Positions 50,601 to 53,600 of a stretch of DNA of 64,000 nucleotides are shown piece by piece (position 1 is the stretch's first letter; every line of letters starts with the position of its first letter). A program made the position numbers. Source of the stretch: Escherichia coli (lineage in GTDB: Bacteria; Pseudomonadota; Gammaproteobacteria; Enterobacterales; Enterobacteriaceae); NCBI RefSeq assembly GCF_048403405.1, contig NZ_CP183129.1; one strand, written 5' to 3'.

Positions 50601-53600
50601 ATTCTGTGTGGTACAGGAGGCAAAGGTTGTACAACTGGCGACCTCACCACCGAAACCGTATACGGATGGTACATTGATTGCGGCCATGAAGAATGCGTCC
50701 TCCTTTATTACCGATCCGACATTAAAAAAAGTCCTGAAAGAGAATGCGGGGCTGGGGACAGAGGCAACCCGGGCAGGGATCATCACCACGCTGGAAAACA
50801 GGAAATTGATTGTCAGGCAGAAAAAAACACTCCGGGCGACAGACACCGGTTGTCAGCTGATTGATGCCCTGCCGGCAGCCTGTACAGATCCGGGAATGAC
50901 GGCGTTATGGGAACAATCACTCGAGCAGGTTGCACAGGGAAATCTGTCTCTGGATGTGTTTATGCAAAAGCAAATCAGCTGGTTGGCACATCTCATTAAA
51001 AAAGGCGGGGAAATGCCGCTGGCGCTGGATCTGCCACCGATGCCATCCTGCCCGTCGTGTCATGGAAAGATGGTCTTACGGGAGAGCAGTAAAGGCCGTT
51101 TCTGGAGTTGTCAGCGTTATCCGGATTGTAAAGGGAGTGTACCATTACCGGAAAAAATGCAGGGGGTTACCCGGGGGATGAATAAAAGAAAGAAGGCCGT
51201 GAAGAAGAGCATAACAGGACTCTTTACCTGAGTGATAATTACCGTTAGCATAGCTGACGCTAGGGAAAAGCCCCCCGTCATTGCGGCAAAGCCGTAGCGG
51301 AACAACTGCGGTGGCGACAATGAGAAAGTCTGTCTGTCAGCAGGACAGACTTTAAGGCGCATCAACCTCATGAAAACCGCGCCGGAGCTGGTTGAACTCC
51401 TGAGGTTCTTTTTAACATCACAGAGTGGGCGGCACTGTCAGGCGTTATTAACCGTAACGCCTTTTTTATTTGACAAAAAAGTTATTCATCCATGTGACTG
51501 AGTACCTGAATCACCCAGTCCGGGCAGGGCCGGGCGCTGTTTTTTTCCGGTGGGCATAACCAGGATTTTACCGCCCTGACAGAACAGGGCCTGCCTGTTG
51601 TCTGCTGAATGAGTTGAGCCAGGTCTTTTTGTGTCAGATGATGTTGCTGTAACCAGACTTTCAGTTTGTTTCTGTTATCCATTTTATTCTTCTGTGTTTA
51701 TCCTTTTCTCTCTGAACTGCTTTTTTACTTGACAAATAAAAAAAGCAGATTAATCCTTATTCTGCTTATACCGTTGCTTAATGCAACATTGCCAATGCTT
51801 CAGTTGTCTGAGAGAAGCGCCTACGGGTGACAACGATGCCAATGTTCCGGCAATCTGAGAGGAACGCCTACGGGTGATTGCCACTGCCAATCCTCGGGTC
51901 ATCTGAGACGGGAGCCTACGGGCGATGACAGAACTCCGTTCGTCCTTGAAATTGACGGAGGGTGATAACAGAATAGCGTTATCATCAGGATCATCTTATA
52001 CAACGCAAGTCGTCAGTTCGGGAGCGTTCCTGTTACTGACCCCGGTGGGAAACACGTTCCTGCCGAGACGATGTTTCTCATTTTTTTACCTTTTTTATCC
52101 GATGGAGAAACATCATGACCAGCAAAAATAATACAACATCTGAAAATAAATACTTTAATCTGCATGTGAACGGGATTGGGTATTTATCGAATATCCGTCA
52201 GGTTAACGGCCCTAAAGGGCAGTTTTTAACCGCAGTGATTAATGCACTCAGTGGACCGGCTGATAACCCTGTGTATGTTCGTTTTGATACGACCGTTGTC
52301 GGGGAGAATACGGTCTCACTGGTCAGACGGTGTATCAAAGCGGTGGATGAGGACAAAAAAGTCCTAACCGGGTTTACATTAAGTAACCTGGCTTCCGATA
52401 TTTTCACCCTGACAAAAGGTGAGCATGCCGGAGAACAGCGGGTCAGCCTGAAAGCCAGGCTGCTGAATATTGACTGGATTAAAATCGGTAAAGAAGTGGT
52501 ATATAAAGCCGAGAAACACCAGTCAACACCACCAGAGACTGAACAGCCGGTATCCAGAGAGTATGTGGCTGATTCTTTTTAGTCATTAATAAGGAGTTTG
52601 CTGTGACTAAAAATACACAACAACCGGTACATGATGCGTTATTCAAGCAGTTTTTAACGCATCCTGAGAATGCCCGGGATTTTTTCTCGGTGCATTTGCC
52701 GGCCAACATCCTGCCTTTGTGCGATTTAAGTACACTGCGCCTGGAGCCGGCCAGTTTTGTGGAGCGCCGTTTACGTCAGCTGCATTCGGATGTGCTGTAT
52801 TCCGTGCAGATGACGGAAGGGGAAGGGTATATCTACTGCCTGATCGAGCACCAGTCAAAACCGGATCGGTTAATGGGTTTTCGTCTGATGCATTATGCGA
52901 TGTCAGCGATAGCGCATCATCTGAAAAAATCGCCGGCGGATAAGACCCTGCCGTTGGTGGTGCCGTTTCTGTTTTATCAGGGCAGTGTTTGTCCTTATCC
53001 GTACAGCATGAACTGGCTGGACGGGTTCGCCGATCCGGCGCTGGCTCAGCAGCTGTATACCCGGTCGTTTCCGTTAGTGGATTTGAGTGTGCTCAGTGAT
53101 GAGGAAATCCTGACACACAAGGGTATTGCCCTGCTGGAGCTGGTTCAGAAACATATTCGGACCCGCGACGGTTTAATGGCGGTATTGCCGATAATCGCGC
53201 AGATAATTAACTCGCAACACAATACGGTTGACCAGGTGAGGAGTGTGATAGAATATATTGCCTATCAGGGGTATATTCTGGATGAATCCCGCTTTTTCAG
53301 CCAATTGATTGCACTGTCACCGGAGTATAAAACGATGCTGACAACGATTGCAGAACAACTTGAGCAAAAAGGTATCGAAAAAGGTATCGAAAAAGGTATC
53401 GAAAAAGGTATCGAAAAAGGTATCGAAAAAGGTATTGGCCTGGGTGTTGAAAAAGTCGCCCGCTCATTATTACAACAGGGGGTTGATCTGAACATTATTA
53501 TGCAATGTACCGGACTGACCCGGGAAAAGATTGAGTCATTAAAACATTAATCTTTTCTGTTTTTACTCTCAAATGCCGGCATGACTGCCGGCATTTTTTA

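What the first reader, a model, noticed from the sequence alone, without database searches (positions are those of the whole stretch)
51789..51932. Three tandem 48-bp repeats with possible compensatory stem changes
Each repeat has a conserved core (tctgaga, gcctacggg). Repeats 1 and 2 have different but self-complementary arms (gcttc/gaagc versus gttcc/ggaac), hinting at a conserved hairpin. They sit between a small divergent HTH gene and a hypothetical ICE gene, so they may be a regulatory or replication-associated site.
Basis: seen in the sequence. Interest (0 to 1): 0.4.

Follow-up and report, generated by a model that had tools for sequence, protein, structure and literature searches.

The report
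Known STAXI pseudoknot RNA leader
The three repeats are a textbook copy of STAXI, a structured RNA of enterobacterial mobile elements catalogued in 2010 whose function is still unknown; here it forms the front end of the leader of a gene for an SSB-like protein.

Summary
Window 51792-51929 (+) holds three 43-nt modules at 47-48-nt spacing, and the compensatory arm changes are real. The feature is not new: 51772-51932 matches Rfam STAXI (RF01728) end to end, at 121 bits against a cut-off of 40.5.

In 101 distinct units from about 60 enterobacterial loci, chosen without regard to pairing, 94.7% of cells pair and 11 of 14 pairs change on both sides. G.U outnumbers A.C 152 to 22, and C(UUCG)G loops dominate. 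This points to an RNA made from the + strand.

New points from this work:
- A sigma-70-type promoter sits at a fixed distance upstream, so STAXI begins a transcript.
- A conserved terminator/anti-Shine-Dalgarno switch precedes the downstream gene.
- That gene (DUF3577/STY4534) encodes an SSB-like OB fold.
- STAXI also heads SSB, antirestriction and integrase units. All arrays in an element are co-oriented.
- STAXI also occurs, together with EFASI RNA, on 3-6 kb plasmids.

Most likely role: a cis-acting leader RNA domain that coordinates the island's DNA-handling genes. The mechanism is inferred, not shown. The adjacent HTH gene is not a general partner.

The parts
51717..51748 (.). Perfect 10-nt inverted repeat CTGCTTTTTT / AAAAAAGCAG with the -35 hexamer in its centre. 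It is a possible operator. A related copy (AACGCCTTTTTTATTTGACAAAAAA, 51456-80) lies on the other side of the HTH gene.
   Evidence: I13, I14, D2; the operator role is inferred only
51729..51757 (+). Predicted sigma-70-type promoter of the STAXI transcript: -35 TTGACA 51729-34, 17-nt spacer, weak -10 AATCCT 51752-57. The predicted start is near 51764.
   Evidence: Not listed by the consensus scan because the -10 is weak. Placed by homology: in 69 arrays the best promoter scores >=9/12 in 46% against 4.7% of controls, and among the 31 arrays scoring >=9/12 the -10 ends 30-37 nt before the first unit in 29. The identical locus L034 scores 9/12 at distance 34.
51772..51932 (+). Full-length STAXI RNA (Rfam RF01728).
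   Evidence: 121.3 bits (gathering 40.5), E 3.6e-27, model positions 1-153 of 153; one search gives the same as the only STAXI in the window
51773..51787 (+). 5' hairpin P0 (GTTGC-TTAAT-GCAAC), the first structure of the transcript.
   Evidence: alignment (model positions 2-17); present upstream of nearly all arrays
51792..51834 (+). Pseudoknot unit 1. Elements: CCAAT linker; pseudoknot 51797-801:51814-18; stem 51803-08:51829-34; inner GCC:GGT 51819-21:51826-28; loop TACG 51822-25.
51839..51881 (+). Pseudoknot unit 2. Elements: pseudoknot 51844-48:51861-65; stem 51850-55:51876-81; inner 51866-68:51873-75.
51887..51929 (+). Pseudoknot unit 3, more divergent. Elements: pseudoknot 51892-96:51909-13 with 4/5 pairs; stem 51898-903:51924-29; inner GCC:GGC.
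   Evidence: The orthologous unit in L035 has CCTCG/CGAGG, fully paired.
51934..51983 (+). Two spacer hairpins of the leader: CTCCGT...ACGGAG 51934-60 and GATAAC...GTTATC 51964-83.
   Evidence: They are specific to the window-type leader; other DUF3577 leaders have a different conserved middle domain.
52043..52065 (+). Local 9-bp hairpin (helix alpha) that competes with the terminator-like helix for GGGAAA.
   Evidence: minimum-free-energy and centroid structures
52047..52087 (+). Terminator-like helix (beta): GGGAAACA 52047-54 pairs with TGTTTCTC 52072-79, followed by a run of 7 T at 52081-87.
   Evidence: -12.9 kcal/mol. The homologous element is stronger (-15 to -23 kcal/mol, T6-8) in other loci. 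The 5' and 3' arms co-vary within loci (-12.7 matched against -9.5 kcal/mol mismatched; 0 of 5000 permutations).
52070..52114 (+). Anti-SD : SD helix (gamma): GATGTTTCTC 52070-79 pairs 10/10 with GAGAAACATC 52105-14. SD GGAG is at 52104-07 and the ATG at 52115.
   Evidence: (I16). Co-varies among loci (-13.8 against -10.3 kcal/mol, 0 of 5000 permutations).
52115..52582 (+). DUF3577 / STY4534-family gene (155 aa), the gene led by this STAXI. It is modelled as an SSB-like OB fold with a Pro-rich linker and an invariant C-terminal ...SF.
   Evidence: PF12101, E 4.6e-54; NF040584; pLDDT 79; top PDB matches mostly SSBs, plus PriB
51482..51682 (-). Divergent 66-aa HTH-like gene. It is a neighbour and probably not a partner of the repeats. 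It might act at the promoter palindrome.
   Evidence: HTH_33, E 0.0065, below the cut-off; found only in window-type loci

Best explanation
The repeats are the three pseudoknot modules of a STAXI RNA (Rfam RF01728).

Proposed transcript. It is transcribed rightward from its own sigma-70-type promoter (-35 at 51729-34). The transcript begins with a small hairpin (51773-87) followed by the three pseudoknots. STAXI is the 5' domain of a leader of about 350 nt for the DUF3577/STY4534 gene, which encodes an SSB-like protein. The leader ends in a three-helix switch. One 3' arm (52070-79) can pair with an upstream GGGAAACA, making a terminator-like hairpin followed by a U-run. Alternatively it can pair with the gene's ribosome-binding region, sequestering the SD.

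Proposed function. STAXI is a cis-acting recognition platform, for a protein or for RNA polymerase itself. It would set how many transcripts pass the attenuator and are translated. Transcripts that stop at the U-run would accumulate as an RNA of about 0.3 kb. Separate copies of STAXI head SSB, antirestriction, Integrase_1 and small unknown genes in the same elements, always on one strand. It would therefore coordinate a set of DNA-handling or establishment genes of the island.

Shown here: identity as STAXI, the pseudoknot structure, the structured strand, promoter placement, the conserved switch, the gene set and the co-orientation.

Inferred: that transcription starts and stops where predicted, that STAXI is coupled to the switch, and the nature of the factor that binds it.

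Sub-confidences: it is a STAXI member, 0.97; it functions as a transcribed RNA, about 0.8; it is a cis-acting leader with an attenuator, about 0.5; the platform/antitermination details, about 0.25.
For: - Rfam full-length match.
- Covariation on 101 units chosen only by unpaired nucleotides: 94.7% of cells paired against 77% in shuffles and 30-54% when the partners are slid. 11 of 14 pairs change on both sides. The pseudoknot helix is 97.4% paired with 5 of 5 pairs covarying.
- Strand and RNA character: G.U 152 against A.C 22; C(UUCG)G loop in 79 of 101 units and UACG in 5.
- Promoter at a fixed distance: score >=9/12 in 46% of arrays against 4.7% of controls, and >=10 in 23% against 0.2%. Among the 31 arrays scoring >=9/12, the -10 ends 30-37 nt before unit 1 in 29.
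- Conserved terminator-like hairpin with U-run, followed by SD and ATG.
- Both helices that use the shared 3' arm co-vary with their partners within loci: -13.8 against -10.3 and -12.7 against -9.5 kcal/mol, with 0 of 5000 permutations reaching either observed value.
- The window fold shows the SD sequestered.
- DUF3577-type leaders are conserved along their whole length.
- Genes led by STAXI: DUF3577 in 18 of 83 arrays, Integrase_1 via EFASI, SSB, Antirestriction PF03230.
- 24 of 24 multi-array elements are co-oriented, p about 5e-10.
- Transcription of STAXI was detected by strand-specific RNA-seq in Pectobacterium (PMC4710047) and by RT-qPCR in E. coli vesicles (PMC12370729).
Against: - No transcription start, 3' end or regulator has been measured for this locus.
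- The window's -10 hexamer is weak (AATCCT) and was not picked up by the consensus scan.
- The window's terminator-like helix is modest (-12.9 kcal/mol), and the minimum-free-energy fold prefers the local hairpin plus SD sequestration.
- 100-150 nt separate STAXI from the switch, and no structural coupling between them was found.
- STAXI also occurs with EFASI RNA on small plasmids without an obvious downstream protein gene. That fits a self-contained RNA better than a gene-specific leader.
- The Pectobacterium RNA-seq paper listed the transcript as a topB 3' UTR, so read-through from upstream is possible.
- Single-sequence folding of the STAXI stretch is no better than shuffles (z -0.1 to -0.9).
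- The permutation tests ignore shared ancestry among loci.
Confidence: 0.5

Rival explanations
1. STAXI is an independent, trans-acting small RNA or protein sponge. It is made from its own promoter and ended at the U-run, and its three modules titrate a host or element factor. The downstream gene merely uses occasional read-through.
For: - Rfam types STAXI as an sRNA.
- A strong promoter and a terminator-like hairpin flank it.
- Full-length STAXI plus EFASI sit on four unrelated 3-6 kb plasmids without an associated protein family.
- The same conserved loops occur whatever the downstream gene.
- It was detected as an RNA species of about 228 nt (PMC4710047) and in vesicles (PMC12370729).
Against: - There is no room for a separate promoter between the U-run and the SD (10-27 nt). 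Gene expression therefore depends on the STAXI transcript.
- The anti-SD switch co-varies with each gene's start region, which argues for cis coupling.
- No target or binding factor is known.
Confidence: 0.25
2. STAXI acts as single-stranded DNA. It would be a folded site exposed during conjugative transfer or replication, such as a priming signal (ssi/sso) or a loading site for SSB-like proteins. Its discoverers raised this possibility.
For: - Its neighbours handle ssDNA: topB, SSB-like DUF3577, SSB.
- All arrays in an element lie on one strand, as leading-region genes do on plasmids (PMC11541004).
- It is present on a Rep_1 rolling-circle plasmid and on two ColE1-like plasmids. On the ColE1-like plasmids, where RNAI fixes the replication direction, STAXI points toward the origin. 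On the rolling-circle plasmid it lies on the strand opposite rep.
Against: - C(UUCG)G and UACG tetraloops stabilise RNA but not DNA (PMC2864571).
- A G.U pair is conserved in 73% of units, and G.U is frequent elsewhere.
- A dedicated promoter sits at a fixed distance, and an SD-linked switch lies downstream.
- On the plasmids where replication polarity can be read, the structured strand is the complement of the displaced strand (note; n=3, weak).
- It has no Frpo-like long hairpin carrying the -35 and -10: the -35 lies in the loop of the palindrome.
- Folding as DNA gives z of -0.1 and -0.9.
Confidence: 0.07
3. A type III toxin-antitoxin-like pair. The tandem pseudoknot repeats would be an antitoxic RNA that binds and neutralises the protein encoded just downstream, with the terminator setting the RNA:protein ratio.
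For: The locus organisation matches the published criteria almost point for point: promoter at the start of the repeats, 2-3 tandem repeats of 40-50 nt that form pseudoknots, a palindromic terminator, then a gene of about 150 aa (PMC3401426).
Against: - The downstream protein is an SSB-like OB fold, not a ToxN/CptN/TenpN endoribonuclease.
- It has no PADLOC match.
- The repeats are only 68-79% identical and differ by compensatory changes. Type III repeats are near-identical units cut by the toxin.
- The same RNA precedes unrelated proteins and occurs with no protein at all on small plasmids.
Confidence: 0.05
4. A tandem riboswitch. Each pseudoknot would be an aptamer for a small molecule or ion, controlling the terminator/SD platform.
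For: - It has small H-type pseudoknots with highly conserved unpaired nucleotides and covarying stems.
- The arrangement is tandem.
- A terminator/anti-SD expression platform lies downstream.
Against: - The controlled genes are DNA-handling genes with no metabolic theme. The discoverers scored it as not a riboswitch (PMC2864571).
- About 100-150 nt separate the last unit from the platform.
- It also occurs without any downstream gene on small plasmids.
Confidence: 0.05
5. Double-stranded DNA iterons bound by the adjacent HTH-like protein or by a replication protein.
For: There are tandem repeats with conserved cores next to a small HTH-like gene in an island that carries replication-type genes.
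Against: - Compensatory changes preserve intramolecular pairing on one strand only. A duplex binding site has no need for that.
- The HTH gene is absent from all other STAXI loci.
- Its Pfam match is below the cut-off.
- STAXI sits in many contexts with no such neighbour.
Confidence: 0.02

Closest known systems
STAXI RNA motif (Rfam RF01728; Weinberg et al. 2010, PMC2864571)
   Same: The match covers every defining feature. It is a full-length model match with a 5' hairpin and three pseudoknot units with UNCG loops. The host is an Enterobacterales species. The neighbours are a topoisomerase, an SSB-like protein and an integrase-bearing island.
   Different: Nothing structural differs. Points added here that I did not find in the two papers read: promoter placement at the 5' end, the downstream terminator/anti-SD switch, DUF3577 modelled as an SSB-like fold, strict co-orientation of arrays, and the small-plasmid STAXI-EFASI modules.
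Type III toxin-antitoxin loci (ToxIN, CptIN, TenpIN; PMC3401426)
   Same: Both have a promoter, then 2-3 tandem repeats of about 40-50 nt that fold as pseudoknots, then a terminator hairpin, then a gene of about 150 aa.
   Different: The protein is an OB-fold SSB-like protein, not a Kid/MazF-like endoribonuclease. The repeats have diverged and co-vary rather than being near-identical units processed by a toxin. The same RNA precedes many unrelated genes.
RNA-dependent processive antitermination leaders (lambda nut, HK022 put: from my own knowledge; conAn of Gram-positive conjugative elements, PMC8191782)
   Same: Both are structured RNAs at the 5' end of operons of a mobile element, with terminators downstream that must be passed for expression. 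In both, the element is repeated at the head of several transcription units.
   Different: There is no sequence or structural similarity. No antitermination protein has been identified here. No read-through has been measured. This is an analogy of logic only.
Frpo / ssi single-stranded DNA promoters of plasmid leading regions (PMC11541004)
   Same: Both are placed upstream of ssb, antirestriction and similar genes, on one strand of a conjugative element.
   Different: Frpo is a long imperfect DNA hairpin that rebuilds a duplex -35/-10. STAXI is a set of small pseudoknots downstream of an ordinary promoter, with RNA-type features (UUCG loops, G.U pairs).
Phage T4 gene 32 autoregulatory leader (from my own knowledge)
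   Same: In both, an OB-fold ssDNA-binding protein gene is preceded by a 5' leader containing a pseudoknot.
   Different: STAXI also precedes genes for proteins that do not bind ssDNA. Binding of DUF3577 to its leader is untested.

Membership tests
STAXI (RF01728) | Covariance-model score at or above Rfam's gathering cut-off, over the full model | tested here: met
   121.3 bits against 40.5; model positions 1-153 of 153; E 3.6e-27
STAXI (RF01728) | [quoted passage not shown] | tested here: met
   There are three units. The pseudoknot helix is 97.4% paired with 5 of 5 pairs covarying across 101 units.
STAXI (RF01728) | UNCG-type tetraloop closing the inner helix | tested here: met
   C(UACG)G in all three window units. 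C(UUCG)G in 79 of 101 units overall.
STAXI (RF01728) | Neighbourhood of SSB, topoisomerase, antirestriction or integrase genes in Enterobacterales | tested here: met
   topB lies upstream and SSB-like DUF3577 downstream, in an E. coli SPI-7-type island.
Type III toxin-antitoxin | Tandem nucleotide repeats upstream of the gene, preceded by a promoter | tested here: met
   Three repeats of 47-48 nt; promoter at a fixed distance
Type III toxin-antitoxin | Palindromic terminator between the repeats and the gene | tested here: inconclusive
   A terminator-like hairpin with a U7 run is present at 52047-87. It is weak in the window, competes with other helices, and lies about 120 nt after the repeats.
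Type III toxin-antitoxin | Downstream protein is a ToxN/CptN/TenpN-family endoribonuclease | tested here: not met
   Pfam gives DUF3577 only. There is no PADLOC match. The AlphaFold model is an OB fold whose best PDB matches are SSBs and PriB.
Type III toxin-antitoxin | The RNA repeats bind and inhibit the protein and are processed by it | not testable with these tools
   This needs toxicity, binding and cleavage assays.
Frpo / ssi single-strand DNA promoter | Long imperfect hairpin in which the -35 and -10 hexamers are base-paired | tested here: not met
   The -35 lies in the loop of a 10-bp palindrome and the -10 has no complementary partner. DNA folding gives z -0.1.
Frpo / ssi single-strand DNA promoter | The structure lies on the transferred strand | not testable with these tools
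   The oriT and transfer polarity of this island are not known from the data held.
Iterons (dsDNA protein-binding repeats) | Repeats co-occur with their binding protein | tested here: not met
   The 66-aa HTH-like gene is found only in L001, L034 and L105 (window-type) among about 125 loci.
Riboswitch | Aptamer with covarying stems and conserved unpaired nucleotides, linked to an expression platform | tested here: inconclusive
   The structure and a terminator/anti-SD platform exist, but they are about 100-150 nt apart and no coupling was found.
Riboswitch | Binds a specific ligand | not testable with these tools
   This needs in-line probing or similar.

The most novel reading that the evidence does not exclude
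STAXI is the common RNA 'handle' of a regulon. Only RNA polymerase (or mRNA) that has engaged the STAXI pseudoknots, alone or with an element- or host-encoded factor, gets past the terminator with the ribosome site left open. SSB-like, SSB, antirestriction and integrase genes would then fire together, for example just after the island enters a new cell. That would make STAXI the ICE counterpart of Frpo-driven early expression on plasmids, achieved with an RNA rather than a DNA structure. The small plasmids that carry STAXI-EFASI would be tapping into, or titrating, the same circuit.
Probability: 0.2. Interest if true: 0.7.

Novelty: already known. Interest (0 to 1): 0.3.

Why it matters
STAXI has been an orphan RNA since 2010. 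It sits in SPI-7-family islands, ICEPm1-like and SGI-4-type elements, and small plasmids of enteric pathogens, next to the genes an incoming element needs first. If the leader model is right, one RNA fold would gate SSB, antirestriction and integrase expression in these elements. That would make a concrete, mutable target for studying or blocking ICE establishment. As a scan finding, however, this is a correct re-discovery of a catalogued motif.

Tried and rejected
1. STAXI as a dedicated DUF3577 leader. Rejected: only 18 of 83 arrays have DUF3577 downstream.
2. The adjacent HTH protein as a conserved partner. Rejected: tblastn finds it only in window-type loci.
3. ToxN-like toxin downstream. 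Rejected by Pfam, PADLOC and the fold search.
4. Sequence search of DUF3577 against PDB chains found nothing. The fold had to be modelled.
5. The phage collection has no STAXI-like DNA.
6. Single-sequence folding of the 163-nt STAXI stretch as RNA or DNA, on either strand, is no better than shuffles. Nested folding cannot represent the pseudoknots and does not recover the consensus for all units.
7. My first two unit regexes were faulty or biased towards pairing. They were replaced by one that uses only unpaired conserved nucleotides.
8. The MAFFT alignment of the leader 3' platform (A3) could not keep the variable anti-SD/U-run segment in register. I used per-sequence duplex energies instead.
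9. Replication polarity on small plasmids. STAXI points toward the origin in both ColE1-like plasmids and lies opposite to rep in the rolling-circle plasmid. With only three cases this decides nothing (note).
10. The literature search for 'STAXI' alone is swamped by the anger questionnaire of the same name. Searches for STY4534 and its neighbours gave no functional study.
11. About a third of the genome-scan hits were chance matches in unrelated phyla, as expected for the pattern's information content. Those that passed the unit regex were excluded by the taxonomy of the record; separately, the chance hits show no pseudoknot pairing.
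Full report
**1. The observation**

Reading window 51300-52500 shows three related units at 51792-51834, 51839-51881 and 51887-51929. Their starts are 47 and 48 nt apart. Tandem Repeats Finder gives period 48, 2.5 copies, 78% matches and score 124. The repeat finder gives three 47-nt copies, with units 2 and 3 at 79% and 68% identity to unit 1.

The cores TCTGAGA and GCCTACGGG occur in all three units. Unit 3 has CCTCG/CGGGA, which makes 4 of 5 pairs. A second helix also changes while staying complementary in all three units: GTTGTC/GACAAC, GCAATC/GATTGC and GTCATC/GATGAC. A degenerate one-unit pattern matches twice in the window, against 0.00 expected by chance.

**2. What it is**

An Rfam scan of 51200-52700 gives a full-length match of 51772-51932 (+) to STAXI, RF01728. 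The score is 121.3 bits against a gathering score of 40.5, with E 3.6e-27 and model positions 1-153 of 153. It is the only STAXI in the 64-kb window.

STAXI was defined by Weinberg et al. (2010, PMC2864571). They described it as a pseudoknot repeated two or usually three times, lying near SSB, topoisomerase, antirestriction and integrase genes in Enterobacterales. They left open whether it acts as RNA or as single-stranded DNA, and favoured RNA because of the UUCG loops. The finding is therefore a re-discovery of a catalogued motif. Its function has not been determined in any paper I could find.

**3. Anatomy of a unit**

Each unit reads as follows: CCAAU linker, 5-nt pseudoknot 5' arm, one nucleotide, 6-nt stem 5' arm, UGAGA, 5-nt pseudoknot 3' arm, GCC, UNCG loop, GGU, 6-nt stem 3' arm. 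The helix modelled by Rfam is the 6+3-bp hairpin. A small hairpin (51773-87) precedes unit 1.

**4. Comparative test of the structure**

One scan of the species-representative genome collection with a degenerate unit pattern returned 120 loci. True units, in Enterobacterales, and chance hits, in other phyla, separate cleanly by pseudoknot pairing.

To avoid selecting for pairing, I re-collected units with a pattern made only of unpaired or loop-closing nucleotides. I dropped six hits on taxonomy and aligned 101 distinct units (A2).

For the structure with both helices:
- 94.7% of cells form standard pairs, against 77.3% in shuffles and 30-54% when the partners are slid by 1-3 columns.
- 11 of 14 pairs change on both sides, in 321 cells.
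- The pseudoknot helix is 97.4% paired, and all five of its pairs covary.

G.U pairs number 152 against 22 A.C. Leaving out one conserved G.U position, the counts are 79 against 22. The fold therefore belongs to the + (STAXI-sense) strand. The loop is C(UUCG)G in 79 of 101 units and C(UACG)G in 5, including the three window units.

Single-sequence folding of the 163-nt stretch is uninformative: z is -0.3 as RNA, and -0.1 and -0.9 as DNA on the two strands. The support is comparative, not thermodynamic.

**5. Surroundings in the window**

The window is an SPI-7-type island of E. coli. The 1.2-kb locus is 98.5-100% identical in 13 complete E. coli genomes and occurs in 27 of 5426. The unit sequences are identical in Proteus mirabilis and Providencia stuartii loci.

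The annotated order is: integrase, parA, island dnaB, parB, DUF2857, STY4528-family protein, PFL_4669-family protein, a 178-aa protein, topB, a divergent 66-aa gene, STAXI, 'STY4534 family ICE replication protein', and an Rpn nuclease.

The STY4534 protein is Pfam DUF3577 (E 4.6e-54). An AlphaFold model built on 30 homologues (pLDDT 79) has the beta1-3 / alpha / beta4-5 layout of an OB fold. Its best matches among solved structures are bacterial and mitochondrial SSBs, with PriB also listed (E 5e-4 to 1e-2, target-normalised TM-score 0.4-0.64 among the SSB/PriB matches). A Pro-rich tail ends in an invariant Ser-Phe, which recalls the SSB C-terminal tip. That last comparison is from my own knowledge.

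**6. STAXI begins a transcript**

Upstream of 69 arrays with clean flanks, the best sigma-70 match reaches at least 9 of 12 in 46%, against 4.7% of control windows. It reaches at least 10 of 12 in 23%, against 0.2%. Among the 31 arrays scoring at least 9 of 12, the -10 hexamer ends 30-37 nt before the first unit in 29. That places the 5' hairpin within about 10 nt of the predicted start.

In the window the -35 is a perfect TTGACA (51729-34). The -10 is weak (AATCCT, 51752-57), which is why the consensus scan missed it. The -35 lies at the centre of a perfect 10-bp inverted repeat. That repeat, rather than the STAXI units, is the likelier target of any local DNA-binding protein.

Published data agree that the region is transcribed. 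Strand-specific RNA-seq in Pectobacterium atrosepticum lists STAXI transcripts downstream of topB (PMC4710047). RT-qPCR detected STAXI in E. coli vesicles (PMC12370729).

**7. A conserved switch ends the leader**

About 100-200 nt after many arrays lies a hairpin of the form GGGAAACAC...GUGUUUCCC followed by 6-8 U. After another 10-27 nt comes GGAGAAACAC-AUG. The 3' arm can pair either with the upstream arm, giving a terminator-like hairpin, or with the ribosome-binding region.

The bases between the SD and the AUG change together with the 3' arm. Examples are AUGUGUCUCC/GGAGACACAU, GAAUUUCUCC/GGAGAAAUUC, GGUUUUCUCC/GGAGAAAACC, and GAUGUUUCUC/GAGAAACAUC in the window.

In 18 leaders, duplex energies are lower for partners from the same locus than for partners from different loci. 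This holds for the anti-SD:SD helix (-13.8 against -10.3 kcal/mol) and for the terminator helix (-12.7 against -9.5 kcal/mol). In both cases 0 of 5000 permutations reached the observed mean. This test ignores relatedness among loci.

In the window the elements are:
- 52047-54 paired with 52072-79, followed by U7 at 52081-87;
- 52070-79 paired with 52105-14, 10 of 10 pairs;
- a competing local hairpin at 52043-65.

The predicted fold sequesters the SD. Leaders of DUF3577 genes are conserved along their whole length, not only in the repeats.

**8. STAXI is not tied to one gene**

DUF3577 follows only 18 of 83 arrays. Other arrays precede:
- an Integrase_1 (PF12835) gene, with an EFASI RNA in between;
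- a canonical SSB;
- an Antirestriction (PF03230) protein;
- several small proteins of 94-120 aa with no Pfam match.

A recurrent layout is STAXI, EFASI, integrase, a second STAXI, a small protein, and then a third array 25-70 kb away. In 24 of 24 elements with two or more arrays, all arrays are on the same strand. That is 31 independent comparisons, with a chance probability of about 5e-10. In the circular SGI-4 record, the STAXI-led block continues into ArdC and a DNA methylase.

Full-length STAXI followed by EFASI on the same strand also occurs on four small plasmids of different replicon types. One is a 3.1-kb Rep_1 rolling-circle plasmid and two are ColE1-like plasmids carrying RNAI. None was found in the phage collection.

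**9. How it most likely works**

The best-supported reading is a transcribed, cis-acting leader. A promoter fires, and STAXI folds at the 5' end. Downstream, one 3' arm chooses between a terminator-like hairpin and SD sequestration. The default outcomes, termination or a masked ribosome site, are both 'off'.

I infer that STAXI is a recognition platform, for a protein or for RNA polymerase itself, that alters this choice. Because the same fold heads several units on one strand, it would coordinate them. The logic resembles processive antitermination leaders. Examples are lambda nut and HK022 put (my own knowledge) and conAn in Gram-positive conjugative elements (PMC8191782).

Nothing here shows read-through, a bound factor, or coupling between STAXI and the switch. 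I put about 0.5 on 'cis leader with attenuator' and about 0.25 on the platform/antitermination details.

**10. Rivals**

- *Trans-acting sRNA or sponge (0.25).* The small-plasmid modules and the terminator favour it. The lack of room for a separate promoter, and the gene-specific anti-SD, count against it being the whole story.
- *Single-stranded DNA element (0.07).* The ssDNA-handling neighbours, the co-orientation and the presence on a rolling-circle plasmid favour it. The UUCG loops, the G.U pairs, the dedicated promoter and the SD-linked switch count against it.
- *Type III toxin-antitoxin-like pair (0.05).* The locus organisation meets the published criteria (PMC3401426). However, the protein is an OB fold with no ToxN-like or PADLOC match. 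The repeats have diverged, and the RNA precedes unrelated genes.
- *Tandem riboswitch (0.05).*
- *Duplex iterons for the HTH protein (0.02).* One-strand compensatory changes exclude this, and the HTH gene is absent from other STAXI loci.

**11. Verdict**

It is a member of a known family, so novelty is 'already known'.

The residual interest is that the family has no known function. The promoter/switch architecture, the SSB-like fold of DUF3577, the strict co-orientation and the plasmid-borne STAXI-EFASI modules give concrete experiments.

Noticed in passing
window 52115-52582: DUF3577 / 'STY4534 family ICE replication protein' is modelled as an SSB-like OB fold (pLDDT 79; best PDB matches are SSBs and PriB). 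It has a Pro-rich linker and an invariant C-terminal Ser-Phe. The family has no Pfam function and no sequence match in the PDB.
   Followed up: partly
L122 2261-3063 (-), L125 2259-3018 (-), L123 4374-4834 (+), L124 1427-2052 (-): Full-length STAXI followed by EFASI RNA on the same strand, on four 3-6 kb plasmids of different replicon types (one Rep_1 rolling-circle, two ColE1-like with RNAI, one untyped). No integrase or DUF3577 gene is present. The module looks portable and self-sufficient. In both ColE1-like plasmids it points toward the origin.
   Followed up: partly
L014, L059, L008, L086, L003 (about 35-70 nt upstream of the first unit): One subfamily of STAXI promoters carries GATCG-N4-6-CGATC, that is two Dam GATC sites in an inverted repeat, in the spacer between -35 and -10. 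This suggests methylation-state or repressor control.
   Followed up: no
alignment A2, columns 7-10 and 24-28: The pseudoknot helix is strongly asymmetric: the 5' arm is 88% pyrimidine and the 3' arm 88% purine. 45 of 101 units contain a Shine-Dalgarno-like GGAG/GAGG/AGGA in the bulge plus 3' arm. This is unexplained.
   Followed up: partly
window 51456-51480 and 51715-51739: A 25-nt repeat (AACGCCTTTTTTATTTGACAAAAAA / AACTGCTTTTTTACTTGACAAATAA) flanks the 66-aa HTH-like gene. Each copy carries a TTGACA. The first copy overlaps a terminator-like hairpin at 51440-62.
   Followed up: no
window 53366-53435: A perfect 12-nt tandem repeat (AAAAAGGTATCG, 5.8 copies) lies inside the Rpn/YhgA-like nuclease gene (52603-53550). 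It encodes a run of GIEK/KGIE repeats.
   Followed up: no
window 4722-4844 (+), 5342-5458 (+), 6508-6686 (-): Rfam matches to STnc490, the ALIL frameshifting pseudoknot (IS3-type transposase) and AS-pc02 antisense RNA. This points to an IS- or plasmid-derived segment at the left of the window.
   Followed up: no
window about 54316-54627 (-) and 54942-55019 (-) (from L001 annotation, offset 35399): An isolated N-terminal fragment of an Orn/Lys/Arg decarboxylase, preceded by an annotated SpeFL leader peptide, sits inside the island just right of the STAXI locus.
   Followed up: no
P. mirabilis contig NZ_GG668579.1 (L103-L105), P. stuartii UGUC01000004.1 (L034-L036): Elements with STAXI units identical to the window carry three arrays: two are 2.4 kb apart and one is about 70 kb away, all on one strand. 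The window therefore probably shows only one of three arrays of its island. Each E. coli genome with this locus also has about 3 matching places.
   Followed up: partly
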